This document shows, in pieces, positions 285 to 15,343 of a DNA stretch of 24,000 bases. Source of the stretch: Marine Group I thaumarchaeote (lineage in GTDB: Archaea > Thermoproteota > Nitrososphaeria > Nitrososphaerales > Nitrosopumilaceae); contig JACATA010000001.1 of the NCBI GenBank assembly GCA_013390375.1, positions 50,211 to 74,210 on the forward strand, written 5' to 3'. The position numbers and the translations under genes are program-made. Below the pieces are notes generated by a model. It ran no database searches. It saw only the letters and a program-made list of their open reading frames with translations, and was not told the DNA's origin. Each line of letters starts with the position of its first letter. Position 1 is the stretch's first letter.

Positions 285-641
285 CTAACTGCCTAGCATT
301 TTACCAGCAAGATTTTCACTTCTTGGAACCCACGTAAGTTTAAGATTGGAAAATTTTGCCATTAGTGACCAGGCCTCTCTCGCTAGAGAACGGAGTTCTT
401 CGTTATTAATTGCAAATTCATGATTTAGTTGGTTTACTGTATTCTTTGAATCACTGTAAATTATAATTTCGTCATTTGAATTTTCAAATTTTTTTAATGC
501 GGAAATTATTGCCATGTATTCTGCTTGATTATTAGTAATTTCTGGTTTATTTTCATAATTCGATTCACCAGTCTCCTTAACAAAAAATCCATAGCCTGAA
601 TTTGTTCCACCGGAACCGTCAACGTAAATGCTTAATGTCAT
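285..641 (-). CDS. rnhA: Small type-1 RNase H-like protein (118 aa)
   Basis: Three RNase HI carboxylates are recognisable: IYVDGSG (Asp), NNQAEYMAII (Glu) and IIYSDSKN (Asp), followed by a C-terminal WVPRSEN. The position that is usually AD reads AG (ENLAGKML), so the fourth carboxylate looks absent. ATG start. The gene lies 24 nt downstream of the thermosome gene on the same strand. Confidence 0.7.
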   Translation of the reverse strand: MTLSIYVDGSGGTNSGYGFFVKETGESNYENKPEITNNQAEYMAIISALKKFENSNDEIIIYSDSKNTVNQLNHEFAINNEELRSLAREAWSLMAKFSNLKLTWVPRSENLAGKMLGS

Positions 642-665: not shown

Positions 666-2372
666 CTAATAGTAATGGTGTGGTCCACGTTGCTCTTTAC
701 CTAATCTATCTAATCTTTCATTATGGTGTTCGTGTTTTAGACTTCCTCCTTTGTGGGTATGTGTTGGACCATTAGCATGAGTATGCGTAAACATTTCAGG
801 TGTTTTCATAAAAATATCATCAATTCCTAATAAAATCGAGATTACATCATTTGTGGTCTTGATAACTTGTTCTTTTAGTATTTTTGGTTCGAAGATTTTT
901 TTAGAGAATGTTTCAGTAATTTTTCTTTGATTAGTATCAATTCCATACCACTCACATCTGCCATTATTAGAACTAGAGATCTTGGAGCGAAGAGCTGATA
1001 AAGTGGAAAGATAGTCCATGCCTGCATTTGTTGCCAATGTTAAAGGTATTTGTTCTAATGAATCTGCAAATTTTGCCATTGCTAATTGCTCCTTTCCATC
1101 CACAGAAGTCATAACTTTTCTAATCTTATTTGCAACAATTGCTTCAAATGCACCTCCGCCACCTACAATTTTTGGGTTTTGGATAAAATCACGCAAAACA
1201 TAAATTCCATCTAATATAGTTCTATGAAACTCGTCAAGATATTTTTTGGAATGTGCGCGGATTAAAATCGTCACAGATTTTGGTTTTTTACATCCTTCAA
1301 CAAAGACCATTTTGTCATCCCCTATTTCTTTTTCATATACATGGTTTGCAGTTCCAATTTCATTTGGAGATATTTTCTCAATAGTCTGGCATATTTTGGC
1401 TCCAGTTGCTTTTTCAAGCCAAAATAGATCATTTTCCTTTACACGTCTCAAGGAAATAATTCCATTTCTTGCAAAGTAGGTTTGTGCCATATCGGATATT
1501 CCCTTTCGGGAAAAAACCACATTTGCACCAGACTCGGCTATTTTTTTTACTTTTCTCAGTACCTCAGTTTTTTCTGCTTCTAGAAATGATGACATTTGTT
1601 CTGGTGATGTAATAATAATTTCTGATTCTGTTTTAGTTCTAACCGCATCTAATTCCTCATTGATCAAAATGATTTTTGCATTGGAAATTTGCCTAGGCAT
1701 AAGACTGTTATCGATCGTTTTGTCAATTATGACCCCTTTAACTAATTTAGTATCAGACGCACTTCCAAGTTTTTCTTCAATTTTAATATCATCCACTTCA
1801 ATGTAGTTTGTTTTTAAATCACATATACTACAAACAGCATCTACTATAATTTTCGAGAGATTTTCTGAATCATCAACTAGAGACGACATTGATTTTGAAC
1901 TTAGAGCCGTTCTTACCAAGTCGAAAAATATTCCCTTTTCTAAATTCCTAGTCTCAGATATTTCGTTTAAAGTTTCTAGGGATAATTCTGTTGCTCGTTG
2001 ATAACCAGTGATTATTACAGCTGGGCTAATGCCCAGTTTAATTAATTCAATCGCGTTTTTGGCAAGACTGCCTACTAAAATGACAGAAGATTTTGTACCA
2101 TCTCCAACGCTGTTATCCACTGTGTTTGCTCCGTCAATGACAACTTTTGCTGACGGGTGTTCAACGTCTATCTTTCGTAAGAATGTTCCACCATCTTTTG
2201 TAATTATAGATTCTCCCATGATATCTATGTACATTTTTTCTAATCCACAAGGTCCAAATGATGTTTTTATCGCGTCAGAAAGCATGCTGGCTGCTAATAG
2301 ATTACCGATCAATGTCTCACCCCTACCAGCATTCGTGATATCATCTGCAAGAATACCTTTTGGAATGCTCAA
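666..2372 (-). CDS. Divergent thermosome (group II chaperonin) paralogue with a His-rich C-terminal tail
   Basis: Group II chaperonin motifs are present but altered: FGPCGLEKM (canonical GPxGxDKM), ITKDGGT, VGDGTKS (canonical GDGTTT), IVGGGGAFE and TNAGMD. The usual Gly/Met tail is replaced by ..FTHTHANGPTHTHKGGSLKHEHHNERLDRLGKEQRGPHHYY, with 9 His in the last ~40 aa. I verified the tail by translating 666..800 by hand. The start is TTG at 2372, and there is no in-frame ATG near the N-terminus. Confidence 0.9.
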   Translation of the reverse strand: MSIPKGILADDITNAGRGETLIGNLLAASMLSDAIKTSFGPCGLEKMYIDIMGESIITKDGGTFLRKIDVEHPSAKVVIDGANTVDNSVGDGTKSSVILVGSLAKNAIELIKLGISPAVIITGYQRATELSLETLNEISETRNLEKGIFFDLVRTALSSKSMSSLVDDSENLSKIIVDAVCSICDLKTNYIEVDDIKIEEKLGSASDTKLVKGVIIDKTIDNSLMPRQISNAKIILINEELDAVRTKTESEIIITSPEQMSSFLEAEKTEVLRKVKKIAESGANVVFSRKGISDMAQTYFARNGIISLRRVKENDLFWLEKATGAKICQTIEKISPNEIGTANHVYEKEIGDDKMVFVEGCKKPKSVTILIRAHSKKYLDEFHRTILDGIYVLRDFIQNPKIVGGGGAFEAIVANKIRKVMTSVDGKEQLAMAKFADSLEQIPLTLATNAGMDYLSTLSALRSKISSSNNGRCEWYGIDTNQRKITETFSKKIFEPKILKEQVIKTTNDVISILLGIDDIFMKTPEMFTHTHANGPTHTHKGGSLKHEHHNERLDRLGKEQRGPHHYY

Positions 2373-2596
2373 TCATTGCTTTACTTGTGAGTAATTAATA
2401 AAATGGATCAAAAAATTTTTTGTTGATTTTAAAAAGAATAATGATTTATGCAAATACAAGAATGCACGTAATTACTACAAATGAACCAATAATTTGCAGT
2501 AATCTAGATTTCTTGTTTTCAAAAGATAGTCTACCACATGAAAAACAATAATGATCTTTTTTCAACACAAACCATACTAACACTTGTTTTAAAAAA

Positions 2597-2761
2597 TTAT
2601 CTTTTTCTATAATCGCGAGTAATTCTAAAGAGCAACCAAATACATGCCATTGCAATAGTTCCAATCCCTAATCCTACATAAAATGGATCAGGTGGCTGTA
2701 GCTGTGTTAGAACAAAACCCATAAGCATGAACATTATAGCAACCACATCACCTTTGTTCAT
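2597..2761 (-). CDS. Possible 54-aa two-TM membrane peptide (below the ORF-track size cut-off)
   Basis: Hand translation from the ATG at 2761 gives MNKGDVVAIMFMLMGFVLTQLQPPDPFYVGLGIGTIAMACIWLLFRITRDYRKR*. It shows two hydrophobic helices and a basic tail. An A/T-rich TATA-like stretch (TTTTTAAT) lies ~30 nt upstream. It overlaps, and competes with, track ORF 2446..2664. Confidence 0.3.
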   Translation of the reverse strand: MNKGDVVAIMFMLMGFVLTQLQPPDPFYVGLGIGTIAMACIWLLFRITRDYRKR

Positions 2762-2841
2762 GTGATGGATTTGGAATCAAGCCATTAAAAAGTAGTTATT
2801 AATCAAAAAACTTCAATTAACAGAAAAATTGACTATCTGTA

Positions 2842-4074
2842 ATGAAATTTAAGAACTCGCCAAAAGAATCAGACGAATTAATCTATGAAGCAGTTTCATT
2901 ATTCAAGAAAAATAAATTCAAAATGGCACTATCAATTTTTGACAAACTTTTAAAAATTAATCCAAAAAGCTTGATTGCATTATCGCATAAGGCTGCTACT
3001 CTTTATGAGTTATCAAGATTTGATGAGGCGATGAAATACTGTGATCAAGTTCTGGAAGAAGATCCGCTATATCTTCACGCATTGTTTTACAAGGGTTTAG
3101 TACTTGGAAAAATGGGTGAACATCAGAAGGCAATCAGCTTCTTTGATAAAGTTTTACAAACAGATCGTAAACATGTGTTGGCATTATACAATGAGGGTGT
3201 ACAGTTTGGCAAGATTGGCAAATATGAAGATGCAGTAAAATTTTTTGAAAAAACATTAGAGGCTGAGCCAGAAAATTCAAGTGCAATGTATGAAACAGGT
3301 CGAGCCCTAGCAAAATTGGGTAAAACCAAGGAGAGTTTGTTGTGGTTTGACCGGGCAATTAAAGTCGATGCAAAAGAATCAATGTCATATTATAACGAGG
3401 GGGTAGATCTTACAAAAGCAAACAATCACCAAGAAGCTATTGTGTATTACGATAAAGCATTAGATCTTGATAAAAACAATGTAAAAGCACTGGTAGCAAA
3501 AGGCTATACTCTTGATGTAGCCGGTTTTTCTTACAAGCAAGTTGTATCATTGTATGACAGAGCACTAAAAATTGACCCAAAATGTACTGAGGCAATACTG
3601 AAGAAGGGAGTTGTGTTTGAGCGAGTTGGTTTATACCATAGGGCAGTTTCATCGTATGAGAATCTGTTAAAAATTGAACCAGAAAACGTTGAGGCGTTAT
3701 ACGGCAAAGCTGTTTCATTAAACTCGCAAAAAAAATACCAGGAGGCGGAATTTTTTTGTAAACGTGCGATAGCTATAGAACCAAAAAATTTGAGGGCTCT
3801 TGGCAGTATGGTTTGGATCCTTGAACATCAGAAAAGATACGAAGAAGCCATGACTTATTGCGACAAGGCAATTGAGATTAATCCTAATTTCTTCTACACT
3901 TTGAGTTACAAAGGAAAGCTGCTTTACGATTTGGGGAGATTTTCTGAGGCTTTAGTTTACTATGACAAAGCTCTAAAGCTGAGTCCAGACGATAGAAGAG
4001 CTCTTCACTACAGAAATAAGATTACAAATAAATTTGGAAAATTAAAGAAAAAACCCTTTCCTATTAAATTTTGA
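2842..4074 (+). CDS. Tetratricopeptide-repeat (TPR) protein, about 11 tandem repeats
   Basis: The whole 410-aa protein is a run of 34-aa units with the TPR pattern (..A...Y.KAL...P....AL..KG..), for example EAMKYCDQVLEEDPLYLHALFYKGLVLGKMGEHQKAISFFDKVLQTD. ATG start. Its stop codon is 1 nt from the stop of the convergent symporter gene. Confidence 0.9.
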   Translation: MKFKNSPKESDELIYEAVSLFKKNKFKMALSIFDKLLKINPKSLIALSHKAATLYELSRFDEAMKYCDQVLEEDPLYLHALFYKGLVLGKMGEHQKAISFFDKVLQTDRKHVLALYNEGVQFGKIGKYEDAVKFFEKTLEAEPENSSAMYETGRALAKLGKTKESLLWFDRAIKVDAKESMSYYNEGVDLTKANNHQEAIVYYDKALDLDKNNVKALVAKGYTLDVAGFSYKQVVSLYDRALKIDPKCTEAILKKGVVFERVGLYHRAVSSYENLLKIEPENVEALYGKAVSLNSQKKYQEAEFFCKRAIAIEPKNLRALGSMVWILEHQKRYEEAMTYCDKAIEINPNFFYTLSYKGKLLYDLGRFSEALVYYDKALKLSPDDRRALHYRNKITNKFGKLKKKPFPIKF

Positions 4075-4075
4075 C

Positions 4076-5629
4076 TTAAGCAGGTGTACTAGTTTGAGGA
4101 CCTGGCTTGAAACCCCTTAAGTCCTCACCTGCAATAACGTCTTCCACAGGTGGTGCATAATCTCTGACATCGTGTCGTTCCTTGCCAGGATAATTCTTTT
4201 GTGTAGCTAGTGCAACTGCAATGAATAAGAAGAATGCAATGATAGGTGGAATCATACTATCCAAGCCCGCATATTCTACAGCAAGATAGCCCGTTGTCTC
4301 CATATCAATCCAGAAGATTAGTCTTATTCCAGAGCCTACAAGTAGTGCAACAACTGCAGCTGGCATGTTAGATTTCTTCCAAAACAATCCAAGTGTTAAC
4401 GGAGCCCATGCTCCTGCAAACACAACATCAAAAGCTAGAATCAAGTAAAATCCAGGGTTTGGAGCTACCCAAGCAAGAAGTACACCAACTCCAAACATTG
4501 GTATAACACAAATTCGTGTTATCCACAATAATTTGTTGTCACTCCATGCATCCCTCTTGAGCCACCGTCGCCGGATTATACGTTGTATAAGATTACGCGA
4601 AATTACAGCCGAAATTCCAAGCAGACCTCCGTTTGCAGTAGACATTCCCGCTCCAAGAACTCCAATCAGCATTGCCGCCCCAATTGCAAATGGCATGTGT
4701 TCCATTGCAAGCAAAGGCATAGCCATTCCTGGATCTTCAAGCGAAGGCAGATAGAACATCGCAATCATTCCCAACATGCTTGTGGGAATTACTGTGAACA
4801 ATGTCAAGCCGCCTCCCCAAAGTGCACCACGCCGAGCTACCTTCGGGTTTTTAGCAGCAAACACCCTTTCCATAAAGTCTAGAGCTATTACATCACCAAG
4901 TCCCAAGGCAAATAATGCTGCCCAATTAAGCAACGCACCATTTTCTATAACATACAGAGCCGTCAAGTCCATAGTGCCATCTGGGAACGAATCTGAAATT
5001 TCTGCCCACGGTGTATCGGCATATCCCCCTGCAAAGAAGATGAAAGCAGCCCAAAATGCCACAATAGCAATATGAACTTGGAAAAGATCCGTAGCCGCAC
5101 AGGAAAACAAGCCTCCACAGAATGTGTATATCAAGACAACTGTTGCGACGATAAGCAATCCCCAAATGTAACTTACGCCAAATACCAATTCACAAATCAA
5201 GCCAGCCGCTGCCAAGTTTCCAGCAACTAAAATAACAAAACTGATAATCATTAATACTGATGAGATGCCTTCTGCTCCATTTCCAAATCGTCTAAAGTAG
5301 AAATCAGGCAAAGTAAACATTTGCATAAAGTTAAGACGCTTAGCATAGAAGATACCAACTAGCAGCAGACATACACCAAGTCCAATCGGCAATACTGCTC
5401 CAGCATAAAATCCAAATTCCCAGACAAGCGCCATATTACCTAATGATGAGTTTCCATCAATTGATTGGGCTGCCAACATTGTTCCCACCAAAAACAGGGG
5501 AAGGCTTCTGCCTGCTACAATTAATCTTCGGCCACTTTTCTGTACAAGTTTCCACATGAGGGAGCCTGCAATTACTGACCCTGCCAAAAATATAGCTACG
5601 ACAATGCCAAAATCTGTAAATTCTGCCAA
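4076..5629 (-). CDS. Sodium:solute symporter (SSS) family transporter, likely DUR3-like urea transporter
   Basis: A 517-aa polytopic membrane protein with Gly/Ala/Leu-rich helices throughout and SSS-like N-terminal topology. The urea specificity is inferred from its position beside the ure genes and from the known association of SSS/DUR3-type transporters with thaumarchaeal urease loci. The start is TTG at 5629, and the next in-frame Met would delete TM1. Confidence 0.8.
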   Translation of the reverse strand: MAEFTDFGIVVAIFLAGSVIAGSLMWKLVQKSGRRLIVAGRSLPLFLVGTMLAAQSIDGNSSLGNMALVWEFGFYAGAVLPIGLGVCLLLVGIFYAKRLNFMQMFTLPDFYFRRFGNGAEGISSVLMIISFVILVAGNLAAAGLICELVFGVSYIWGLLIVATVVLIYTFCGGLFSCAATDLFQVHIAIVAFWAAFIFFAGGYADTPWAEISDSFPDGTMDLTALYVIENGALLNWAALFALGLGDVIALDFMERVFAAKNPKVARRGALWGGGLTLFTVIPTSMLGMIAMFYLPSLEDPGMAMPLLAMEHMPFAIGAAMLIGVLGAGMSTANGGLLGISAVISRNLIQRIIRRRWLKRDAWSDNKLLWITRICVIPMFGVGVLLAWVAPNPGFYLILAFDVVFAGAWAPLTLGLFWKKSNMPAAVVALLVGSGIRLIFWIDMETTGYLAVEYAGLDSMIPPIIAFFLFIAVALATQKNYPGKERHDVRDYAPPVEDVIAGEDLRGFKPGPQTSTPA

Positions 5630-6418: not shown

Positions 6419-6469
6419 TAGGCAAATTTAATTATATTCTAACACACTAAATTTTGAAACAAATTGGGA

Positions 6470-7585
6470 ATGGAAGCTTATGGTGATGATTACAAGGGCG
6501 CACCAGAACCAATTTTTTGTGGAATACCAACATTTTTGAAATTACCGCTTTTAAAAAATCAGCAAGAATTACAGAAATCAAAGCCGGACATTGCAATAAT
6601 TGGTGAACCGTTTGATTTTGGAACTACAATTAGACCCGGTGCACGTTATGGTCCTAGAGCAATTAGGGCAGCATCAACAGTCCCATCACCTCCGTACGAA
6701 CATTTCAACATAGAAACGGGTGTTGATCCATTTGGAGTATTCAAAGTTGCAGACTATGGAGATGTCAATGTATCACCTGGAGATGTGATTGAATCGTTAA
6801 GAAGAATGACGGACAAGGTGAAATCTGTACTTGATATTGATGCTATGCCAATAATGCTTGGAGGGGATCACTCTATTACATTTGCAAATGTACGGGCTTT
6901 TGCCAAAAAACACAAAAACATTGGCATGATACATATCGATACACATGCAGATTGTGCACCGCAAGGACTAACTGGTTTCAAATACGATCACGGTGCACAC
7001 ATTCGCCGAATAATGGAATTAGGTTGCCTTAAAGGGAAAAATTATACCTTGATAGGACCTCGCGGATATTGGCCAGGACCTGATCTTTACAAATGGATGG
7101 CAGACCAAGACTTTCAATGGTTTACCATGTTAGATGTTGAAGAGCTTGGTATAGATCAAATAGCAAAAGAGGCAGCTGACAGAGCAAATGATAACGTTGA
7201 CGGTGTTTTCATAAGCTGGGACATAGACACCTTTGATCCTGCATATGCACCTGGAACAGGAGAGCCGGAACCAAACGGTTTGACTTCTCGTGAAGGAATG
7301 AGATTGATGAGATTGTTATCTACATCATTTGATCCAGATACGTTTGGATTTGATCTAGTTGAAGTTTCTCCAGCATATGACGTGAGTGATGTAAACTCAT
7401 ACAATGGAGGCATCACTTCAGGGTTAGCTAATAGATTAATTGTAGAATTGATGGCGGGGTTATCTTTGACAAAAAAAGGAGAGCGTGAGGGTAATCCTGT
7501 TAGGCCAAAGTCATACAGAGGAACTGGAAACACATATAGCTTTGGCGGACCAAAAGCAGAACCACCTTCTCCTAGAAAAAATTGA
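6470..7585 (+). CDS. Arginase/agmatinase-family ureohydrolase (agmatinase-, guanidino-acid- or guanidine-hydrolase-like)
   Basis: All family metal-site motifs are present: LGGDHSITF, IHIDTHADC, SWDIDTFDPAYAPGTGEPEPNGLT and DLVEVSPAYD. The track ORF starts at TTG 6464, and the first ATG is 6470 (MEAYGDDY..). A ~40-aa Pro/Gly/Lys-rich C-terminal extension (..TKKGEREGNPVRPKSYRGTGNTYSFGGPKAEPPSPRKN) follows the fold. Confidence 0.9.
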   Translation: MEAYGDDYKGAPEPIFCGIPTFLKLPLLKNQQELQKSKPDIAIIGEPFDFGTTIRPGARYGPRAIRAASTVPSPPYEHFNIETGVDPFGVFKVADYGDVNVSPGDVIESLRRMTDKVKSVLDIDAMPIMLGGDHSITFANVRAFAKKHKNIGMIHIDTHADCAPQGLTGFKYDHGAHIRRIMELGCLKGKNYTLIGPRGYWPGPDLYKWMADQDFQWFTMLDVEELGIDQIAKEAADRANDNVDGVFISWDIDTFDPAYAPGTGEPEPNGLTSREGMRLMRLLSTSFDPDTFGFDLVEVSPAYDVSDVNSYNGGITSGLANRLIVELMAGLSLTKKGEREGNPVRPKSYRGTGNTYSFGGPKAEPPSPRKN

Positions 7586-7968
7586 TAGATATTCAAATTA
7601 TCATTAAAGGAGAAAAGGCACAAAATTCATTTTCTCAAAAATATTATTATCCTCATGAATCAGACGAGGAAATTTTTTTCAATTCAGTACAATTAGTAAT
7701 AGCTAGGATTGAAAAGAAATTAAAGATCAACCTTAATGAGGTACTTACAATTTTTCTAGATTTTTTAGTACGAGAGCATAGAAAAAAAAGAGACATAGAT
7801 GAGATAAAAGAAAACCTTTCAAAACTTCTTACACATGATCAAGTATTGATTGGAGTTCCAGAGTTGGTTAAAAAGATAGAATTTTCTGGAAGGATTGACT
7901 TAAACCCAAAATTTACAATTGTTCTAAATGAACCCATTCTGATTCCAGAATATATTATAAAGGCGTAA
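7582..7968 (+). CDS. Divergent urease gamma-subunit (UreA)-like protein
   Basis: It aligns ungapped to the local UreA over ~95 residues. The matching blocks are [44 protein letters not shown] and [19 protein letters not shown]. The ORF has no Met codon. The TTG start at 7582 overlaps the TGA (7583..7585) of the ureohydrolase gene. Confidence 0.6.
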   Translation: MIDIQIIIKGEKAQNSFSQKYYYPHESDEEIFFNSVQLVIARIEKKLKINLNEVLTIFLDFLVREHRKKRDIDEIKENLSKLLTHDQVLIGVPELVKKIEFSGRIDLNPKFTIVLNEPILIPEYIIKA

Positions 7969-7990
7969 AAATATTCAAAGAACTTCAACG

Positions 7991-8437
7991 TTAATCCTTA
8001 TACCACCTTGTAATTTTTACAAGAAAATTGATAACAACCAAGTAAATAGCGACAGCGATAATCTGCCCTGTTATTGATGCTAAGTATGGCTCATAATCAA
8101 CCGTTAGAAAGTAAAATTGAAATCCCCACCTAACTATTGTGTAAATGATTTCTGCGATACCTAGTGAGGCAATAATTTTTACTAAATCTGTCTTAAGTAG
8201 TGGCCAATTTGTTTTTCCTGAATTTAGTCTGTATTTGTTTCGATTATCTAGATATAGCAAAAAACCAAGTATTGACAAAAATGTTCCATGATCAGCTAAA
8301 AGAGTAACAGTTGCATTGATGTAATGTTCCTGTTCTATAAGCATCTGGGCTACTATAGCTGAAACTATAAAATCTACTGCAAATGCTATGAAAATATTCC
8401 TGTTTAGTTTTAGATATTGTTTGTATATGTCTTTCAT
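7991..8437 (-). CDS. Uncharacterised 4-TM membrane protein directly downstream of ureD
   Basis: 148 aa with four hydrophobic segments: IFIAFAVDFIVSAIVAQMLI, GTFLSILGFLLYL, IIASLGIAEIIYTIVRWGFQFYFL and ITGQIIAVAIYLVVINFLV. It starts 32 nt after the ureD stop on the same strand. I recognised no family signature. Confidence 0.6.
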   Translation of the reverse strand: MKDIYKQYLKLNRNIFIAFAVDFIVSAIVAQMLIEQEHYINATVTLLADHGTFLSILGFLLYLDNRNKYRLNSGKTNWPLLKTDLVKIIASLGIAEIIYTIVRWGFQFYFLTVDYEPYLASITGQIIAVAIYLVVINFLVKITRWYKD

Positions 8438-8469: not shown

Positions 8470-9399
8470 CTAAGTTTTTCTTACACCATTAAATGAAGTG
8501 CCAAGAATTTCCTTTCTTACTATTCTAATAATACCATAAATTGTGGTTTTAATTTCCTCGGATGAATTTCCTAACAATCTAACAACTAAACCACAGTCAT
8601 GTGGCAGCACGGTACAACCACCATTCACTTCAGCATTATCTTGTAGTGCCAGATTAATTTTCTCTTTAATTTGTAAAACAGAATTATTTTTTGAAATTAT
8701 GTAAATAGTTGCTAAGACTGTATAGTTTCCAAAGATGCCAAGTGTTGTCATTTTTTGTTTTTTTGGTTCTAAAAGAAAATTATCTAAAAATTTAGTTTTT
8801 TTATCATTATTACGACAAATCGTTTTTAGATAACAAATATCGTATGAAAAAAATTCCCCCATGGCAACTCTGCCGGGAGTCAGTATTTCGGAATATACGA
8901 GGGTTGCGGAATCTTCAATGTTTAATTCGACTTTTTGATAATATCGTGAATTTTGATATGGAATTAATTGATCTGGTATGAATTCCAAATAGCAGTCTTT
9001 GTTTACAGTAATATTGAACAATTGTGTAGCATAGTTTGAATTCATTTTGTAGATTCGTGTGGCGCCCTGCGTTGTTATATGACATACAGCTTGATTTGTT
9101 AGCGTAATATCTATTCTACACCGATCTCCTTGTATGATTCCACCTGATGGCGACATGATAAACAAATTGGCCATGCTAGGAAGAAATTCATCATAATAAA
9201 GTGCCTTTTGGATGTAAAGTGGAAATTGAGAATATTGATCAGTAACGACAGTTTTATTTTTTTTAGAATCCTTTTCTAGTTTTATTCTTATGAATCCAAC
9301 TTTTCCTGTTTTGCCAACATCCAGCTGAGCTACTTTATGGTCATATGCTGAGAATTCTGAAGGAATGTCATCTGGTTCAACAAATTTTAGATCAGTCAT
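8470..9399 (-). CDS. ureD: Urease accessory protein UreD/UreH
   Basis: The size (309 aa), the position after ureG with a 4-nt overlap, and UreD-like strings (SPSGGIIQGDRCRIDI, ITTQGATRIYK) support the call. Confidence 0.85.
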   Translation of the reverse strand: MTDLKFVEPDDIPSEFSAYDHKVAQLDVGKTGKVGFIRIKLEKDSKKNKTVVTDQYSQFPLYIQKALYYDEFLPSMANLFIMSPSGGIIQGDRCRIDITLTNQAVCHITTQGATRIYKMNSNYATQLFNITVNKDCYLEFIPDQLIPYQNSRYYQKVELNIEDSATLVYSEILTPGRVAMGEFFSYDICYLKTICRNNDKKTKFLDNFLLEPKKQKMTTLGIFGNYTVLATIYIISKNNSVLQIKEKINLALQDNAEVNGGCTVLPHDCGLVVRLLGNSSEEIKTTIYGIIRIVRKEILGTSFNGVRKT

Positions 9400-10055
9400 T
9401 TTGCATTAGTGATTATTTTTTTTGGAGGTTGTTCAAACAATACATCTTCTATTATGTGACGGGCTACAATGTCAACACCTTCATCAGTTTTGCAGTTAAC
9501 AAGTACGTACGGTTTATTTTTTCTAACAGTTTTTGCATCACGTTCCATTATATCCAAATTAGCATCTACTAGTGGTGCAAGATCAATTTTGTTTATTACC
9601 AATAGATCACACGTCTCAATACCCAATCCCCTTTTTCGTGGATATTTATCACCACCTGAAACATCGATAATATAAATAAAATAATCAGCCAAGGCAGGAC
9701 TAAACGTAGTTGTAATATTATCACCGCCGCTTTCAATTATAATTAAATCCAAATCACTGTGTTCGTTTTCTATCTCTTCAATTACAGACAGATTAATTGA
9801 CGGATCTTCGCGAATTGCCGTATGTGGACATCCACCAGTAGCAACACCAATCACTAAATTTTCAGGTAGTAAGCCCTGATTAGTAGCAAGATTTTGCCTC
9901 ATTCTATCGGCATCTTCCTTAGAAATAACATCATTTGAAATAATACTAATTCGATAACCATTCTTTGCTAAAATTGGTACGACTCTTTCAATCAACATGC
10001 TTTTTCCACATCCTACAGGTCCACCGATGCCAATGCGTGGAATTCTTTTTTTCAT
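9396..10055 (-). CDS. ureG: Urease accessory GTPase UreG
   Basis: P-loop GIGGPVGCGKS, the metal-binding GGCPHTAIRED motif, ESGGDN, and NKIDLAP for GTP specificity. Confidence 0.95.
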   Translation of the reverse strand: MKKRIPRIGIGGPVGCGKSMLIERVVPILAKNGYRISIISNDVISKEDADRMRQNLATNQGLLPENLVIGVATGGCPHTAIREDPSINLSVIEEIENEHSDLDLIIIESGGDNITTTFSPALADYFIYIIDVSGGDKYPRKRGLGIETCDLLVINKIDLAPLVDANLDIMERDAKTVRKNKPYVLVNCKTDEGVDIVARHIIEDVLFEQPPKKIITNAK

Positions 10056-10072
10056 ATCAGCAAAGACTAGTT

Positions 10073-10783
10073 TTATGTAATAAACATTTTAGAAAATGTC
10101 TGCTCATGAGCTATTTGTATAACATCATATTCAGGTGCAAATTGCCACATCTCACTTAATGATTTTGAAATGTATTTGTTACAAGTTTCTGCAATAACAG
10201 GTTTTAATTGATGCAGTATTTTTTGACTTTGAATGTGTTCGATCATCCCTAATCTTAGTGCTGCACCAACCATGCTTACGGAAAATCCATAAAGAAAATG
10301 TAACGCTGCCTTTTGTTTTTCAATCCCTAACGAATTAGATACAACACCTATAACTACAGCATGTGTTCCGGGTGTTTTGGAGTTTTTTACCGCCTCATAA
10401 TACTCACTTAAGACGTCATTGTTAACAAAAGAACTAACACATTTTATCATCTGTGTTCCAGATCTACATGTTGCTTCGCGTAATTCCTTAACAAGTTTCA
10501 TTGAAAATAACAATTTATCACATTCAATTATCCTTTCAACATCTTTTGATCCAGTAAAATTGTAAGCATTAGCAAGTGCTACACAGTCAGCAGGTCCAAT
10601 TTGTTGTACAATATTAGTCTGTATTAATTCATAAAGTTCGTCAATTGATGCTATTCGTTTTTCAGAAAATAATGTTTCTAAACCGTTAGACATTGTGTAA
10701 AGTCCGGTAGGAAAAAATGAATCGGAGATCTGCATCAAGCTCAAGTCGCTAAAATCAGTGTTCATGTACATCCATACTAACAT
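10073..10783 (-). CDS. ureF: Urease accessory protein UreF
   Basis: The N-terminal LMQISDSFFPTGLYTMSNGLE matches the UreF signature (L.Q..DS.FP.G....S.GLE). The gene lies between ureE and ureG. The likely true start is an internal ATG (about 10765-10771), which shortens the overlap with ureE. Confidence 0.85.
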   Translation of the reverse strand: MLVWMYMNTDFSDLSLMQISDSFFPTGLYTMSNGLETLFSEKRIASIDELYELIQTNIVQQIGPADCVALANAYNFTGSKDVERIIECDKLLFSMKLVKELREATCRSGTQMIKCVSSFVNNDVLSEYYEAVKNSKTPGTHAVVIGVVSNSLGIEKQKAALHFLYGFSVSMVGAALRLGMIEHIQSQKILHQLKPVIAETCNKYISKSLSEMWQFAPEYDVIQIAHEQTFSKMFIT

Positions 10784-11252
10784 GTGGAATAAAGCGTTGT
10801 TCGTCTACTGTGAGGTCAATTTTATCAATTACTTCATGAAACAGTCTTTGAAACAATTCCATTTCAGAATCATCAAGAATAGGAAAGGAAATTGTTTCAT
10901 TATTGATTGAAATTGGACGATGCCTATTTCCAATAATGTGACCCACAAGAAGAAATAACTCTGGATCGCTGTCCTTGAATTTAACAGTGAGTGTCTTTTC
11001 CGGTAATTGTTCAATTAGAATAGTTTCTGAGGATTCTAAAATTATATCGCCATGTTGTAGTCTTTTTCCAGGTTCAAGCGCTAGACCAATATCAAATCCA
11101 TCTTCAGTTTTTTTTCTTAAACGTGATTTTTCCATCTCAATTCTAGACAATAATAGGCGCCTAAACGTTCCATGTTGTTTTACTTCTTGAAATTTTTTCG
11201 CTAGCTCGGCGTTTTCGTATATATTTCCCGAAACAGCATTAACAATTAACAT
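10755..11252 (-). CDS. ureE: Urease metallochaperone UreE
   Basis: The conserved Ni-binding segment is present (LVGHIIGNRHRPISI; UreE GNRH motif), and the protein has a short His-containing end (HVSMDVHEH). It is the first gene of the ureEFGD operon. Confidence 0.8.
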   Translation of the reverse strand: MLIVNAVSGNIYENAELAKKFQEVKQHGTFRRLLLSRIEMEKSRLRKKTEDGFDIGLALEPGKRLQHGDIILESSETILIEQLPEKTLTVKFKDSDPELFLLVGHIIGNRHRPISINNETISFPILDDSEMELFQRLFHEVIDKIDLTVDEQRFIPHVSMDVHEH

Positions 11253-11329: not shown

Positions 11330-11632
11330 ATGTATCTTACTCCAAGGGAAATGGACAAATTACATGTCTTTATGACAGCTGAACTTGCTAGAAAACGAAA
11401 AGCAAGGGGTTTAAAATTAAACCATCCGGAATCTGTTGCACTTATTGCTGATCATATTTTAGAAGGTGCTCGTGATGGAAAATCAGTCGCTGATCTAATG
11501 AATTCTGGAAAAACAGTCTTAACAAAGGACGATGTTCTGCCTGGTGTGACAGATATTATTCATACAGTTCAAGTTGAAGCAACATTTGAGGATGGTACAA
11601 AATTAGTCACAGTTCATGACCCAATTGTGTGA
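11330..11632 (+). CDS. ureA: Urease gamma subunit
   Basis: [57 protein letters not shown]...[21 protein letters not shown] is the canonical 100-aa UreA. Confidence 0.95.
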
Positions 11633-11636
11633 TAAT

Positions 11637-12017
11637 ATGATACCAGGAGAATATTTTCACGCAGATAAATCCATACTGGCAAATGAGGGGCAAAAAACTG
11701 TTCAAGTTAATGTTGCAAGCACTGGCGATAGACCTATACAAGTTGGATCCCACACTCATTTTTTTGAAGTAAATAAGGCGCTTGAGTTTGAAAGGGAAAA
11801 AGCATATGGTTTTCATCTGAACATACCTGCTGGTACATCCGTCAGATTCGAACCTGGGGAATCAAAAAATGTTGAACTAACTGAATACACTGGAAAAAGA
11901 ATTGTTTATGGATTTAATGGTCTCGTAAGTGGTTCACTGGAAAAAAATAAAGAAGATGCATTGAAAAAGGCGGCAGAACAGGGTTTCAAGAATATTGTAA
12001 TAAAACGTGATGGGTAA
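11637..12017 (+). CDS. ureB: Urease beta subunit
   Basis: It opens with the canonical MIPGEY and contains [17 protein letters not shown]. The track ORF begins earlier (11616), but the ATG at 11637 gives the conserved N-terminus, 4 nt after the ureA stop. Confidence 0.95.
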
Positions 12018-13731
12018 AATGGTTCTTGAAATTGCAAGAAAACGATACGTTGAACTGTTTGGTCCGACAGTTGGTGACAAAGTACGCCTTGCTGACACTG
12101 ATTTGATCATTGAAGTTGAAAAGGATCTTCTCAAATATGGAGATGAGCTTGTATTTGGTGGCGGGAAAAGTGTACGTGATGGGCTTGGTCAAGCAGCCGG
12201 TGTCATGCGTGACGAATCTGCCGATTTAGTAATCACAAATGCAATAGTCTTAGATCCTGTCTTGGGTATCATCAAAGCAGATATTGGAATAAAGGACGGA
12301 AAGATTCTAAGAGTTGGAAACGCAGGAAATCCAAATGTGATGGATGATGTTGACATTATTGTTTCTTCAAATACTGAAATAATTTCCGGTGAGCATACAA
12401 TTTGTACGCCTGGTACGATTGACAGCCATATTCATTTTATCTCTCCGCAGCAGGCGATTTATGCCATTTGTAGTGGGACTACTACCATGATTGGTGGCGG
12501 TACTGGTCCCGCTGATGGTACAAATGCCACAACTTGTACGCCTGGAGAGTGGAATATACACAAAATGATTGAGGCTGTAGAAGAATACCCACTAAACTTT
12601 GGATTCTTAGGCAAGGGCAATGACTCACGCGAGGAAGCTTTACTGGAACAAATTAAAGCTGGAGCATGTGGCTTGAAACTTCATGAGGATTGGGGAACAA
12701 CTCCGGCTACAATAAACTCGGCGCTAAATGTTGCGGACAAAACTGATACGCAGGTTGCAATTCATACGGATACGCTAAACGAGTGTGGCTATGTTGATGA
12801 TACCATCAACGCAATTGCGGGAAGAGCTATCCACACCTACCATACAGAAGGTGCTGGTGGCGGACATGCGCCGGACATTATGAAGATAGCGGGAGAAGCA
12901 AACATCTTACCGTCTTCAACAAACCCCACTAGACCATTTACGGTAAACACACTTCAGGAACATCTTGACATGATGATGGTTTGCCATCACCTTAATCCTT
13001 CAGTTCCAGAGGATGTCTCTTTTGCTGAATCAAGAATACGGGCTGAAACAATTGCTGCTGAAGACGTCTTGCATGACATAGGTGCCATTAGCATGATGTC
13101 ATCAGATAGCCAAGCAATGGGTAGAGTAGGAGAAGTTACTACCAGAAACTGGCAGACAGCAGACAAAATGAAGAAAATGAAAGGAAGGCTGTCTCAAGAA
13201 AATGGAGATAATGATAATTTTAGGGTAAAAAGATATCTTGCAAAAATTACTATAAACCCAGCAATAACTCATGGAATTTCTGACTATGTTGGCTCACTTG
13301 AGCCAGGTAAAATTGCTGATATAGTTATTTGGACGTCACAGTTTTTTGGAATTAAACCCAAGTTGATAATCAAGGGAGGATTCATAGCATATGCTTTGAT
13401 GGGAGATCCAAATGCGTCAATTCCAACAACAGAACCGGTTTATTATCGCCCAATGTTTGGTGCGCTTGGAAAAGCAAAGCAATCTACGTCGGTTACTTTT
13501 ACCTCACAACTTGCATTAGATAATAAATTAGAGGAAAAGCTAAAAATTCAGAAAAAACTTGTTCCTGTAAAAAACTGCCGCAACATTGGAAAAAAGGATA
13601 TGCTGTATAATGATCAAACGCCTAAGATAGAAGTTGATCCAGAAACATATGAAGTGAAAGTTGACGGTAAAATTGCAACGGTTGATCCTGCCGAGAAGCT
13701 ATCTCTTGCGAGACTTTACAGCTTGTACTAA
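12007..13731 (+). CDS. ureC: Urease alpha (catalytic) subunit
   Basis: [16 protein letters not shown] is present, together with the Ni ligands and active-site strings [20 protein letters not shown] (carbamylated Lys), [29 protein letters not shown] and SSDSQAMGR. In-frame start candidates are GTG 12007, ATG 12010 and ATG 12019. All of them overlap or abut the ureB stop at 12015..12017. Confidence 0.97.
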
Positions 13732-14687: not shown

Positions 14688-15212
14688 ATGTCATTTGTGC
14701 TTTGGATGACAGGATTACCGTGTTCTGGCAAGACAACTATAGCAAGAAAGTTACAAGAACTTTATCCCAAACTAGTTGTACTTGACGGAGATGAACTTAG
14801 AGCACAGTCCTCATCAAATGATTTTTCAAGAGAAGGTATAAACGAAAACAACAGGAAAGTTGCTAATCTGGCAAAAGATTTTTCAATGTCTAAGCCTGTT
14901 TGTGTTTCTCTTATTAGCCCATTTAAGGAAAATAGAGAAGATGCACGTAAAGTGATAGGTGATGACAAGTTTATTGAAGCATACATCGAATGTTCACCTT
15001 CTGTTTGTGAGGAAAGAGATGTTAAGGGCATGTACAAAAAAGCCCGACGAAATGAAATCAAGGATTTCATAGGGGTACAGACAGATTATGAGATTCCAGA
15101 TAAACCTGATCTAACTGTTAATACAGAAACCAACTCTCTTGACGAGTGCGTAGGTCAAATTACTGAGTATCTATTAGATTATGATCAAAACTTTGAAGAT
15201 AACTTTGGTTGA
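14688..15212 (+). CDS. cysC: Adenylyl-sulfate (APS) kinase
   Basis: LWMTGLPCSGKTTIARKL (P-loop), LDGDELR, LISPF and KGMYKKARRNEIKDFIGVQTDYEIP are all CysC hallmarks. The gene starts 18 nt after the radical-SAM gene. Confidence 0.9.
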   Translation: MSFVLWMTGLPCSGKTTIARKLQELYPKLVVLDGDELRAQSSSNDFSREGINENNRKVANLAKDFSMSKPVCVSLISPFKENREDARKVIGDDKFIEAYIECSPSVCEERDVKGMYKKARRNEIKDFIGVQTDYEIPDKPDLTVNTETNSLDECVGQITEYLLDYDQNFEDNFG

Positions 15213-15218
15213 ATCACT

Positions 15219-15236
15219 GGAATGGGTCCACAGGGA
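15219..15236. repeat. Distal att direct repeat (displaced copy of the tRNA-Val 3' end)
   Basis: GGAATGGGTCCACAGGGA here matches GGGATGGGTCCACAGGGA at 16751..16768 in 17 of 18 positions, with a perfect 15-bp core. Confidence 0.85.
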
Positions 15237-15343
15237 CCAAGACACTTTGATGGGTTCTTTTTTGGTTCCGTTTTGTGCGTAACTTGTTATGGAACTTGTC
15301 TTGCCATTAAACGTGATCGTTTTTTTCAATAAAAAAATACGAT

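What the first reader, a model, noticed from the sequence alone, without database searches (positions are those of the whole stretch)
666..2372. Thermosome paralogue with degenerate ATP-site motifs and a His-rich (nickel-binding-like) C-terminal tail, a few kb from the urease locus
The last ~40 residues read FTHTHANGPTHTHKGGSLKHEHHNERLDRLGKEQRGPHHYY. They contain 9 His arranged as HxH and HH motifs. The Gly/Met-rich tail typical of thermosomes is absent.

In group II chaperonins the termini point into the folding chamber, so a ring of subunits would line the cavity with many His residues.

His-rich tails are a recurring feature of Ni-handling proteins. Examples are the C-terminal extension of Helicobacter GroES/HspA, Klebsiella-type UreE, and some HypB and SlyD proteins.

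The core motifs also differ from canonical thermosomes:
- GDGTKS in place of GDGTTT
- LEKM in place of DKM
- ITKDG in place of TNDG
This indicates a specialised paralogue rather than the housekeeping subunit.

The gene lies 1.7 kb from the urea symporter and about 6-11 kb from the ure genes. I recognised no other Ni-storage or Ni-import function in the window. A Ni-loaded chaperonin dedicated to urease, or to the ureohydrolase, is a testable idea.
Basis: partly seen in the sequence, partly recalled or inferred. Interest (0 to 1): 0.7.

Follow-up and report, generated by a model that had tools for sequence, protein, structure and literature searches.

The report
Histidine-tailed chaperonin of archaeal urease loci
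This gene is an extra chaperonin copy that ammonia-oxidizing archaea keep next to their urea and urease genes, with its usual flexible tail replaced by a strictly conserved eight-histidine motif that probably binds nickel for urease, though no metal binding has been measured.

Summary
ORF 666-2372(-) is a 568-aa group II chaperonin. Its last 43 residues carry 9 of its 13 His.

The tail is a conserved motif, not a local oddity: THxHx[DN]GxxHxH..G..HxH…G..QR..HHYY. It was present in:
- 80/80 relatives from species-level AOA genomes
- 120/120 profile hits
- 0/119 housekeeping Nitrososphaeria thermosomes, which have GGM tails
- 3/150 diverse group II cluster representatives, all three being members of this clade

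On a core-only tree the His-tailed proteins form one clade.

Of the 80 genome loci, 77 carry urea genes beside the chaperonin. In 48 these include ure genes. In 23 the gene follows ureD on the same strand, with a median gap of 77 nt.

The same HxHx[DN]GxxHxH motif occurs elsewhere only in the loop of a NicO-like permease found in 34 of the 80 loci, though not in this window.

So the "specialised, urease-linked, probably Ni-binding paralogue" reading is well supported comparatively but untested biochemically.

The ATP-site claim is half right. EKM and TKDG are clade-wide. GDGTKS is not diagnostic. This protein keeps the catalytic Asp, while the Nitrosopumilus-type sister subclade has lost it.

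An extra thermosome near AOA urease genes was noted in 2018 and 2020. I found no paper mentioning the His tail or a nickel link.

The parts
666..2372 (-). His-tailed group II chaperonin (thermosome paralogue), 568 aa, TTG start
   Evidence: It is identical to database proteins annotated as thermosome subunit of Marine Group I thaumarchaeote.
669..797 (-). Coding region of the C-terminal His motif (residues 526-568). It has three HxH pairs plus a terminal HHYY, and a lineage-specific 4-residue insertion adds a ninth His.
   Evidence: H530, H532, G535, H538, H540, G543, H547, H549, G558, Q561, R562, H565 and H566 are invariant in the 22-sequence clade alignment.
2085..2258 (-). Nucleotide-binding motifs: FGPCGLEKM (residues 39-47), ITKDGGTFL (57-65), VGDGTKSS (89-96)
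   Evidence: D->E in DKM and N->K in TNDG are clade-wide. The K in GDGTKS is specific to this lineage.
1209..1211 (-). Codon of Asp388, which aligns with the catalytic Asp of the HDAL helix. It is retained here and replaced by Asn in 43/43 type-A relatives.
   Evidence: The equivalence to GroEL D398 and Mm-cpn D386 rests on established knowledge.
2373..2841 (.). Intergenic region between the divergently oriented chaperonin and TPR genes. An A/T-rich TATA-like stretch (TTTTATTAA) lies about 25-35 nt upstream of the TTG start.
   Evidence: read by eye. Promoter function is inferred, not tested.
2842..4074 (+). TPR-repeat protein, conserved between the symporter and the agmatinase-like gene in 34 related loci
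4076..5629 (-). Sodium:solute symporter family protein, the DUR3/SSS-type putative urea transporter of AOA. It is the most frequent direct neighbour of the chaperonin.
   Evidence: Found in 60/80 related loci. PMC10753782 describes dur3 as the urea-transporter gene type of group I.1a AOA.
6464..7585 (+). Arginase-family (agmatinase-like) ureohydrolase, 77-91% identical across AOA orders
7582..7968 (+). UreA-like (urease gamma-like) 128-aa ORF that overlaps the agmatinase-like gene by 4 nt
   Evidence: Found paired with the agmatinase-like gene in about 45 related loci.
8470..11252 (-). ureD, ureG, ureF, ureE. UreE ends ...MDVHEH and has no His-rich tail.
11330..13731 (+). ureA, ureB, ureC
285..641 (-). 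RNase H-like gene 24 nt downstream of the chaperonin on the same strand, possibly co-transcribed
   Evidence: Found in the neighbourhood in 11 related loci.

Best explanation
The gene belongs to a single, vertically inherited clade of group II chaperonin paralogues. The clade is confined to ammonia-oxidizing archaea and sits in their urea/urease gene neighbourhood.

In this clade the Gly/Met tail of normal thermosomes is replaced by a conserved 38-43-residue motif with eight near-invariant histidines. Thermosome C-termini project into the central cavity (established knowledge). A ring of 8-9 subunits would therefore line the cavity floor with about 70 histidines.

The most likely function is a specialised chaperonin, or chaperonin subunit, that binds Ni(II) on these tails. 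It would assist folding, assembly and metallation of the locus's nickel enzyme, urease. In that role it would stand in for the His-rich Ni reservoirs (His-tailed UreE, HypB, SlyD, Hpn) that the AOA UreE proteins seen here lack.

**Shown:** paralogy, clade-specific tail conservation, gene linkage to ure and urea-transport genes, and motif sharing with a NicO-like permease loop.

**Inferred:** metal binding, nickel specificity, urease as the client, and whether it forms its own rings or joins housekeeping rings.

This particular protein keeps the catalytic Asp and may still cycle ATP. The Nitrosopumilus-type sister subclade has Asn there and may act as a passive holder or depot.
For: **Tail specificity**
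- The tail regex hits the query, 80/80 GTDB-genome relatives, 120/120 profile hits and 119/120 near-identical metagenome proteins.
- It hits 0/119 housekeeping Nitrososphaeria thermosomes and only 3/150 diverse cluster representatives, all three being AOA clade members.
- The tail has 13 invariant positions in 43, against 86 in 525 for the core.

**Clade**
- The clade is monophyletic on a tree built without the tail, and its branching follows AOA taxonomy.

**Linkage**
- 77/80 loci have urea-related genes beside it. The 3 exceptions have less than 1 kb of flank.
- 48 loci have ure genes.
- 23 loci have ureEFGD followed by the chaperonin on one strand, with a median gap of 77 nt.
- Linkage persists through at least four different gene orders.

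**Reverse test**
- 5 of 11 AOA-type ureC metagenome contigs carry it. The other 6 are truncated on the relevant side.
- None of about 65 bacterial-type ureC loci has a group II chaperonin.

**Nickel link**
- The motif H.H.[DN]G..H.H occurs 101 times in 650,000 aa of six-frame ORFs from the window plus the 80 loci.
- 81 of these are the chaperonin tails. The other 20 are all in the His loop of a NicO-like permease in the same loci.
- 11/14 of these permeases match Pfam NicO.
- AOA UreE ends in a short ..HEH.

**Second chaperonin lineage**
- A second, unrelated chaperonin lineage sits inside the ure operon of another AOA group. This suggests AOA urease generally recruits a chaperonin.

**Literature**
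- An extra chaperonin at AOA urease loci was noted earlier (PMC5797428, PMC7265257).
Against: - No metal-binding or expression data exist.
- In this window the gene is not in the ure operon. It is 6 kb away, divergent from the TPR gene, and probably has its own promoter.
- Ten related loci with full 10-kb flanks lack ure genes nearby while keeping the chaperonin, symporter, agmatinase-like gene, UreA-like gene and often the permease. The partner could therefore be something other than urease, or urease may lie elsewhere in those genomes. For Nitrosotenuis sp. DW1 the latter is reported (PMC10753782).
- The second chaperonin lineage in ure operons has no His tail, so a His tail is not needed for a urease-linked chaperonin.
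- The AF2 model gives the tail pLDDT below 50.
- The permease's assignment to nickel rests on sub-threshold family matches.
Confidence: 0.55

Rival explanations
1. The chaperonin serves the other conserved neighbours rather than urease. These are the arginase-family (agmatinase-like) ureohydrolase and its UreA-like partner, possibly a Ni- or Mn-dependent urea-forming enzyme. Alternatively it serves the whole module of permease, ureohydrolase, symporter and urease.
For: - The agmatinase-like and UreA-like pair accompanies the chaperonin in about 45-48 of 80 loci.
- It remains in the 10 full-flank loci that have no ure genes within 10 kb. In several of these (including L010, L059 and L068) the NicO-like permease directly abuts the pair.
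- In Nitrososphaeraceae loci the chaperonin lies between ureCBA and this pair.
Against: - The agmatinase-like protein is 77-91% identical across AOA, which suggests it may be a core gene whose proximity is historical.
- In 23 loci the chaperonin is placed directly after ureD, far from the agmatinase-like gene.
- Arginase-family enzymes are typically Mn enzymes (established knowledge).
- A second chaperonin lineage is embedded in ureABC-EFGD itself.
Confidence: 0.15
2. It is a general extra chaperonin subunit for stress, such as high hydrostatic pressure as proposed for the hadal MAG. Its position near urea genes would be inherited gene order without functional meaning, and the His tail would have a non-metal role such as pH sensing or inter-subunit contacts.
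For: - PMC7265257 proposed pressure adaptation.
- In this window the gene is a separate transcription unit.
- Vertical inheritance can preserve neighbourhoods.
Against: - The clade occurs in soil, groundwater, lake, sponge and marine AOA alike (titles), so it is not tied to depth.
- Linkage survives several rearrangements across orders.
- Eight near-invariant His in HxH pairs, and the same motif in a NicO-like permease loop, are hard to explain without metal binding.
Confidence: 0.1
3. The tail binds a different metal (Cu or Zn) and the protein buffers or detoxifies it. This would resemble the His-rich tail of mycobacterial GroEL1, which is linked to copper.
For: - GroEL1 is a precedent (PMC10170517; bioRxiv 10.1101/766162).
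- AOA are copper-rich organisms (general knowledge).
- Type-A tails carry a conserved Cys in THCH.
- His-rich peptides are rarely metal-specific.
Against: - No copper- or zinc-handling genes were seen beside it.
- The consistent neighbours are a nickel enzyme system and a NicO-like permease.
Confidence: 0.1

Closest known systems
Urease-locus 'Hsp60 homolog' (arCOG01257) of Nitrosocaldus and Nitrososphaerales (Abby et al. 2018, PMC5797428), and the 'additional thermosome' near the SSS and urease genes of hadal MAG MTA1 (Zhong et al. 2020, PMC7265257)
   Same: An extra, phylogenetically distinct group II chaperonin sits next to AOA urease and urea-transporter genes. The MTA1 description matches this window's arrangement.
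   Different: - Neither paper mentions histidine or nickel.
- The 2018 paper states the homolog is absent from Nitrosopumilales. Here the His-tailed clade is found in many Nitrosopumilaceae and Nitrosotalea genomes.
- The 2020 paper explains it as a pressure adaptation.
- A second, tail-less chaperonin lineage exists inside some ure operons, so which of the two the 2018 paper described is uncertain.
Helicobacter pylori HspA (GroES with a His/Cys-rich C-terminal Ni-binding extension)
   Same: A chaperonin-system protein carrying a His-rich C-terminal extension in an organism that depends on urease. HspA is described as nickel-scavenging (PMC8779794, PMC3856676).
   Different: - HspA is the group I co-chaperonin lid, not the ring subunit.
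- There is no sequence relationship.
- The HspA tail is a composition-type His/Cys stretch. Here the motif has fixed spacing and is conserved across orders.
Mycobacterial GroEL1 (Cpn60.1) with a His-rich C-terminus
   Same: A non-essential chaperonin paralogue in which the GGM tail facing the cavity is replaced by a His-rich tail proposed to bind metal (PMC10170517; bioRxiv 10.1101/766162).
   Different: - GroEL1 is a group I chaperonin. GroEL models score only 44-59 bits against this protein, far below their cut-offs.
- GroEL1 is linked to copper, not to a nickel enzyme locus.
- Its tail is a short run of His rather than a structured HxH motif.
His-rich Ni reservoirs of urease and hydrogenase maturation (Klebsiella-type UreE tail, HypB, SlyD, Hpn)
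   Same: A His-rich terminal segment encoded beside Ni-enzyme maturation genes. The presumed role is a Ni buffer or donor.
   Different: - There is no homology.
- Here the segment is grafted onto an ATP-dependent folding machine.
- Nickel binding here is untested.
Canonical archaeal thermosomes (e.g. Acidianus 3J1E, Sulfolobus 4XCD, T. acidophilum 1A6D)
   Same: Full-length three-domain group II chaperonin, about 40% identical, with GDGT, GGGA and the catalytic Asp retained.
   Different: - EKM instead of DKM, and TKDG instead of TNDG.
- The tail differs.
- It scores below the TIGR02339 cut-off, 490 against 671.

Membership tests
Group II chaperonin / thermosome (Pfam PF00118; NCBIfam NF041082, NF041083, TIGR02339) | Full-length Cpn60_TCP1 domain | tested here: met
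   Residues 31-523 match profile positions 1-488 of 490, E 1.4e-141.
Group II chaperonin / thermosome (Pfam PF00118; NCBIfam NF041082, NF041083, TIGR02339) | Score above the curated family cut-offs | tested here: met
   NF041082 scores 503.5 against a cut-off of 450, and NF041083 scores 503.5 against 400. The older subfamily model TIGR02339 is not reached, 490.1 against 671.1, which reflects divergence.
Group II chaperonin / thermosome (Pfam PF00118; NCBIfam NF041082, NF041083, TIGR02339) | Nucleotide-site motifs (GPxGxDKM, TNDG, GDGTT, GGGA) and the catalytic Asp | tested here: inconclusive
   GDGT, GGGA-E and Asp388 are present. DKM->EKM and TNDG->TKDG are substituted across the clade. The effect on ATPase activity cannot be judged from sequence.
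Group II chaperonin / thermosome (Pfam PF00118; NCBIfam NF041082, NF041083, TIGR02339) | Three-domain fold with a built-in helical lid | tested here: met
   The AF2 model has mean pLDDT 79 and pTM 0.77, with a long helix at 257-280 in the apical region. No fold search was run.
Group II chaperonin / thermosome (Pfam PF00118; NCBIfam NF041082, NF041083, TIGR02339) | Double-ring assembly and ATP-driven folding | not testable with these tools
   Requires biochemistry or cryo-EM.
AOA urease-locus extra chaperonin (PMC5797428, PMC7265257) | Encoded in or next to the urease/urea-transporter locus | tested here: met
   In the window it is 1.7 kb from the SSF gene and 6 kb from ureD. 77/80 related loci have urea genes beside it.
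AOA urease-locus extra chaperonin (PMC5797428, PMC7265257) | Phylogenetically distinct from the housekeeping thermosomes | tested here: met
   It falls in a monophyletic clade with a long stem on an NJ tree of 511 core columns, without bootstrap. It is 36-42% identical to housekeeping Nitrososphaeria thermosomes.
AOA urease-locus extra chaperonin (PMC5797428, PMC7265257) | Same family as the 2018 'Hsp60 homolog' | tested here: inconclusive
   Two different chaperonin lineages occur in AOA urease loci, the His-tailed one and the L090-type. The paper gives no sequences in the text held.
His-rich nickel metallochaperones/reservoirs (HspA, His-tailed UreE, HypB, SlyD, Hpn) | His-rich terminal segment next to Ni-enzyme maturation genes | tested here: met
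His-rich nickel metallochaperones/reservoirs (HspA, His-tailed UreE, HypB, SlyD, Hpn) | Measured Ni(II) binding and transfer | not testable with these tools
   Needs ITC, ICP-MS or activation assays.
His-rich nickel metallochaperones/reservoirs (HspA, His-tailed UreE, HypB, SlyD, Hpn) | Sequence homology to any of them | tested here: not met
   A tail peptide searched against all PDB sequences gave only a chance hit at E 3.1. The resemblance is functional analogy only.
GroEL1-type His-tailed chaperonin (group I) | Group I (GroEL) homology | tested here: not met
   GroEL models score 44-59 bits against cut-offs of 350-580.

The most novel reading that the evidence does not exclude
AOA possess a chaperonin-metallochaperone hybrid. 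This is a group II chaperonin whose cavity-facing tails form a nickel depot built from the motif THxHxDGxxHxH…HxH…HHYY. A permease whose cytoplasmic loop carries the same motif would load it. It would deliver Ni to urease while the enzyme is folded or assembled. In the Nitrosopumilus-type subclade, which has lost the catalytic Asp, it would have become an ATP-independent nickel-holding cage. This would be the first metal-loading chaperonin known in archaea and a missing piece of Ni trafficking for marine urea-based nitrification.
Probability: 0.35. Interest if true: 0.8.

Novelty: new variant of a known kind. Interest (0 to 1): 0.68.

Why it matters
- **Ecology.** Urea is a major substrate for marine and soil ammonia-oxidizing archaea, and urease needs nickel, which is scarce in seawater. 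How AOA store and deliver nickel is not described: the UreE proteins examined here lack a His-rich tail.
- **Candidate mechanism.** A conserved, urease-linked chaperonin with an eight-His cavity tail gives a concrete, testable candidate. So does the matching motif in a neighbouring NicO-like permease.
- **Chaperonin biology.** Metal-binding chaperonin tails are so far known only in the bacterial group I proteins HspA and GroEL1. This would extend the idea to group II chaperonins.
- **Marker value.** The gene is also a marker that could sharpen predictions of urea use from metagenomes.
- **Correction to the literature.** The urease-locus chaperonin is not restricted to Nitrososphaerales and Nitrosocaldus.

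Tried and rejected
1. **Tail as a lineage oddity or low-complexity drift.** Rejected. The motif is conserved with fixed spacing across orders.
2. **His tails on all AOA thermosomes.** This was my first thought. Rejected once housekeeping Nitrososphaeria thermosomes were retrieved, since they have GGM tails and 0 His in 109/119.
3. **GDGTKS as evidence of a dead ATP site.** Rejected.
4. **First tail regex.** It missed the query because of its 4-residue insertion, so it was relaxed.
5. **AF2 on a 36-sequence alignment.** The core is confident but the tail has pLDDT below 50. Only a weak beta-hairpin hint appears at 528-531 and 537-540, which is not usable evidence. No fold search was run because family membership was not in doubt.
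6. **PDB sequence searches.** Searches with the tail and with the permease found nothing.
7. **Literature searches.** Searches for a His-rich thermosome tail, a chaperonin in the urease cluster, and a nickel transporter in AOA found only the 2018 and 2020 notes.
8. **Genome-level presence/absence.** Testing against urease-negative isolates could not be done.
9. **The listing of cluster members on top representatives.** It gave almost no organism names.
10. **The 469-nt upstream region.** It showed only short A/T-rich repeats with no convincing operator.
Full report
**1. Observation**

The ORF at 666-2372 on the minus strand has a TTG start and encodes 568 aa. It is a full-length group II chaperonin. 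Pfam Cpn60_TCP1 matches at 1.4e-141. The NCBIfam thermosome alpha and beta models are above cut-off, while the older TIGR02339 model is below it, 490 against 671 bits.

The last 43 residues are EMFTHTHANGPTHTHKGGSLKHEHHNERLDRLGKEQRGPHHYY. They contain 9 of the protein's 13 His, hypergeometric P = 2e-8. No Gly/Met tail is present.

The neighbourhood is as described:
- RNase H-like gene
- the chaperonin
- TPR protein
- SSF symporter
- arginase-family gene
- UreA-like ORF
- ureDGFE
- ureABC

More than 120 proteins at 98-100% identity exist in marine metagenomes. They are named after Marine Group I thaumarchaeotes and HF4000 fosmids. The organism is therefore an abundant deep-water ammonia-oxidizing archaeon (AOA).

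**2. The tail is a conserved motif of one clade**

A scan of one genome per species returned 80 relatives, all from AOA. They include Nitrosopumilus, Nitrosarchaeum, Nitrosotenuis, Nitrosotalea and Nitrososphaera. They are only 48-56% identical to the query, yet they align to its very last residue.

Every one ends in the same pattern: T-H-x-H-x-[DN]-G-x-x-H-x-H-x2-3-G-x2-4-H-x-H-…-G-x-x-Q-R-x-x-H-H-Y-Y.

Two flavours exist:
- Type A is DNTHCHIDGTVHAHHDGGKAHNHFEQEGLEQRQMHHYY. It is found in the main Nitrosopumilaceae radiation.
- Type B is MYTHTHGDGTTHSHARGNKPHDHFDKLGKMQRPSHHYY. It is found in Nitrosotalea, in Nitrososphaerales and in the query's own lineage.

A regular expression for the motif gave these counts:

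| Set | Matches |
|---|---|
| Query | yes |
| Genome loci | 80/80 |
| Profile hits | 120/120 |
| Near-identical relatives | 119/120 |
| Housekeeping Nitrososphaeria thermosomes, including N. viennensis and N. evergladensis | 0/119 |
| Most similar 50%-cluster representatives of all group II chaperonins | 3/150, all three clade members |

The housekeeping proteins end in GGM repeats. All other cluster representatives have 0-3 His in their tails.

In a 22-sequence alignment, 13 of 43 tail positions are invariant, against 86 of 525 core positions. A neighbour-joining tree on 511 core columns, with the tail excluded and no bootstrap, puts all His-tailed proteins in one clade on a long stem. Its branching follows AOA taxonomy. 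The query and L048 are sister to the type-A group. This indicates one old paralogue that was inherited vertically.

**3. Linkage to urea genes**

I ran tblastn with the window's proteins against the 80 loci.
- 77 loci have urea-related genes beside the chaperonin. The three exceptions have less than 1 kb of flank.
- 48 loci contain ure genes.
- 60 contain the SSF symporter.
- 48 contain the arginase-family gene.

The gene order differs between lineages but the linkage persists:
- (i) ureCBA divergent from ureEFGD, then the chaperonin. This occurs in Nitrosotalea-like genomes, Nitrososphaera, and the NP-delta and NP-theta MAGs.
- (ii) The symporter directly upstream of the chaperonin, with ure genes 2-10 kb away on either side (Nitrosopumilus, Nitrosarchaeum).
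- (iii) ureCBA, then the chaperonin, then the UreA-like and arginase-family genes (Nitrososphaeraceae).
- (iv) The arrangement in this window.

In 23 loci the chaperonin follows ureD on the same strand. The gap ranges from 39 to 152 nt in 22 of them and has a median of 77 nt. This is compatible with co-transcription.

In the reverse test, a UreC profile was searched against metagenome contigs and recovered 11 AOA-type loci.
- Five of the 11 carry the His-tailed gene.
- The other six are cut off within 0-4 kb on the side where the gene lies in related genomes.
- None of about 65 bacterial-type ureC loci has a group II chaperonin.

**4. A nickel connection**

In 34 of the 80 genome loci, a protein of about 250 aa lies beside the UreA-like and arginase-family pair. 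Its features are:
- multiple hydrophobic stretches, consistent with a membrane protein
- an H-x4-D-H signature (HAFEPDH)
- a WGxGHT motif
- a loop with 11 invariant His
- 11 of 14 members match Pfam NicO, the high-affinity nickel-transport family, best E 6.5e-7, at or just below the gathering score

Its loop contains the same core motif as the chaperonin tail, for example HTHLHDDGIIHTHPHEHDGEHKHTH. Across all six-frame ORFs of at least 60 aa in the window plus the 80 loci (650,000 aa), H.H.[DN]G..H.H occurs 101 times. Of these, 81 are the chaperonin tails. The other 20 are all in this permease loop.

AOA UreE proteins end in a short ..MDVHEH and lack a His-rich tail.

**5. ATP site**

Compared with 119 housekeeping AOA thermosomes, the clade shows these changes:

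| Site | Housekeeping | His-tailed clade |
|---|---|---|
| DKM | D in 118/119 | EKM in 71/80 |
| TNDG | N in 115/119 | TKDG in 64/80 |

Both changes are present in the query.

The type-A subclade goes further. The Asp of TNDG is His in 43/43. The Asp that aligns with the catalytic residue of the HDAL helix is Asn in 43/43. The equivalence of that Asp to GroEL D398 and Mm-cpn D386 is established knowledge. This suggests ATP hydrolysis has been lost in that subclade.

The query keeps both Asp residues. Its GDGTKS is lineage-specific. It is also not diagnostic, because Lys at that position occurs in 26/131 other group II chaperonins, including Acidianus and Sulfolobus beta subunits with solved structures.

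**6. Structure**

AF2 on a 36-sequence alignment gives a confident chaperonin core, with mean pLDDT 79 and pTM 0.77. The tail is low-confidence, with pLDDT 33-47. A hinted beta-hairpin spans the first two HxH pairs. I treat this only as compatible with a metal-dependent fold.

That thermosome termini point into the cavity is established knowledge from thermosome structures. It was not tested here.

**7. What is known**

Abby et al. 2018 (PMC5797428) noted an Hsp60 homolog conserved in the urease loci of Nitrosocaldus and Nitrososphaerales. They suggested it stabilises urease and stated it was absent from Nitrosopumilales.

Zhong et al. 2020 (PMC7265257) noted that most marine AOA have two thermosome genes. 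They reported that a hadal MAG has a third, phylogenetically distinct one near the SSS and urease genes, and proposed pressure adaptation.

Neither text mentions histidine or nickel. Five further full-text searches found nothing on a His-tailed thermosome.

The closest functional analogues are bacterial:
- H. pylori HspA/GroES, which has a Ni-binding His/Cys tail (PMC3856676, PMC8779794)
- mycobacterial GroEL1, which has a His-rich tail linked to copper (PMC10170517; bioRxiv 10.1101/766162)

**8. Complications**

Ten loci with full 10-kb flanks lack ure genes nearby but keep the chaperonin, the symporter, the arginase-family and UreA-like pair, and in several of them the permease. Either urease lies elsewhere in those genomes, or the module also works without urease. 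For Nitrosotenuis sp. DW1, whose His-clade protein is P0456, urease genes are reported in PMC10753782. If the module works without urease, the arginase-family enzyme becomes a candidate client.

A second, unrelated chaperonin lineage sits between ureC and ureE in another AOA group (L090, L091, L093, L095). It is 518 aa, has canonical ATP motifs and has no His tail. It is 31% identical to housekeeping thermosomes and 24-26% identical to the His clade. This strengthens the general chaperonin-urease link but shows that a His tail is not obligatory. It also leaves open which lineage the 2018 paper described.

**9. Verdict**

The nickel and urease function remains an inference.

The existence of an extra thermosome at AOA urease loci is known. 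I found no prior description of the following:
- the conserved eight-His tail
- its restriction to this paralogue
- its presence throughout Nitrosopumilales
- the motif shared with a NicO-like permease
- the loss of the catalytic Asp in one subclade

I rate it a new variant of a known kind, with interest 0.68.

Noticed in passing
L010:3220-3972(-), L059:3228-4067(-), L048:2745-3500(-), L066:11683-12399(-), and about 30 further loci; absent from the window: A NicO-like putative Ni/Co permease of about 250 aa lies next to the UreA-like and agmatinase-like pair. It has an HX4DH-type signature (HAFEPDH), a WGxGHT motif and a loop with 11 invariant His. The loop carries the same HxHx[DN]GxxHxH motif as the chaperonin tail. 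11/14 members match Pfam NicO at or just below threshold.
   Followed up: yes
L090:4649-6205(+), L091:5048-6607(+), L093:~6859-8280(+), L095:~3314-3706(+): A second, unrelated group II chaperonin sits between ureC and ureE in another AOA lineage whose UreC is 67-71% identical to the window's. It is 518-519 aa, has canonical LGPKGLDKL, SNDGVTIL and GDGTTT motifs, and has no His tail. An unannotated ORF of about 125-130 aa follows it. Two chaperonin lineages have therefore been recruited to AOA urease loci.
   Followed up: partly
window 6464-7585(+) and 7582-7968(+): An arginase-family (agmatinase-like) gene is 77-91% identical across AOA orders. It scores just below the agmatinase equivalog cut-off, 163.6 against 174.3. 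It overlaps by 4 nt a 128-aa ORF with weak similarity to the urease gamma subunit. The pair is conserved in about 45 related loci. What a UreA-like partner does for an arginase-fold enzyme is unexplained.
   Followed up: partly
Related loci, type-A subclade (e.g. L054, L012, L010): In all 43 type-A (Nitrosopumilus, Nitrosarchaeum, Nitrosotenuis) orthologues, the Asp aligning with the catalytic residue of the HDAL helix is Asn. The Asp of TNDG is His. This suggests an ATPase-inactive chaperonin shell.
   Followed up: partly
window 2842-4074(+): A 410-aa all-TPR protein lies between the chaperonin and the symporter. It is conserved in that neighbourhood in 34 related loci and is a possible adaptor or co-chaperone.
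   Followed up: no
window 7991-8437(-): A 148-aa hydrophobic protein has no family match. It is conserved near ure clusters in 17 related loci.
   Followed up: no
window 14688-16708: An APS kinase gene (14688-15212, +) and an integrase-like gene (15344-16708, -; Phage_integrase 24.4 bits, below the cut-off) lie between the radical-SAM gene and the amino-acid kinase gene. That interval holds other genes in L010, and tblastn with these two proteins hit none of the 80 loci. This may be a lineage-specific insertion.
   Followed up: no
window 2598-2762(-): A 54-codon ORF, MNKGDVVAIMFMLMGFVLTQLQPPDPFYVGLGIGTIAMACIWLLFRITRDYRKR, has two hydrophobic stretches. It lies in the intergenic region upstream of the chaperonin. 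It has not been checked for conservation.
   Followed up: no
P0121 (1057 aa) and P0124 (1047 aa): These are double-length group II chaperonins with two full matched stretches, apparently tandem fusions. They were among the top hits in the 50%-cluster library.
   Followed up: no
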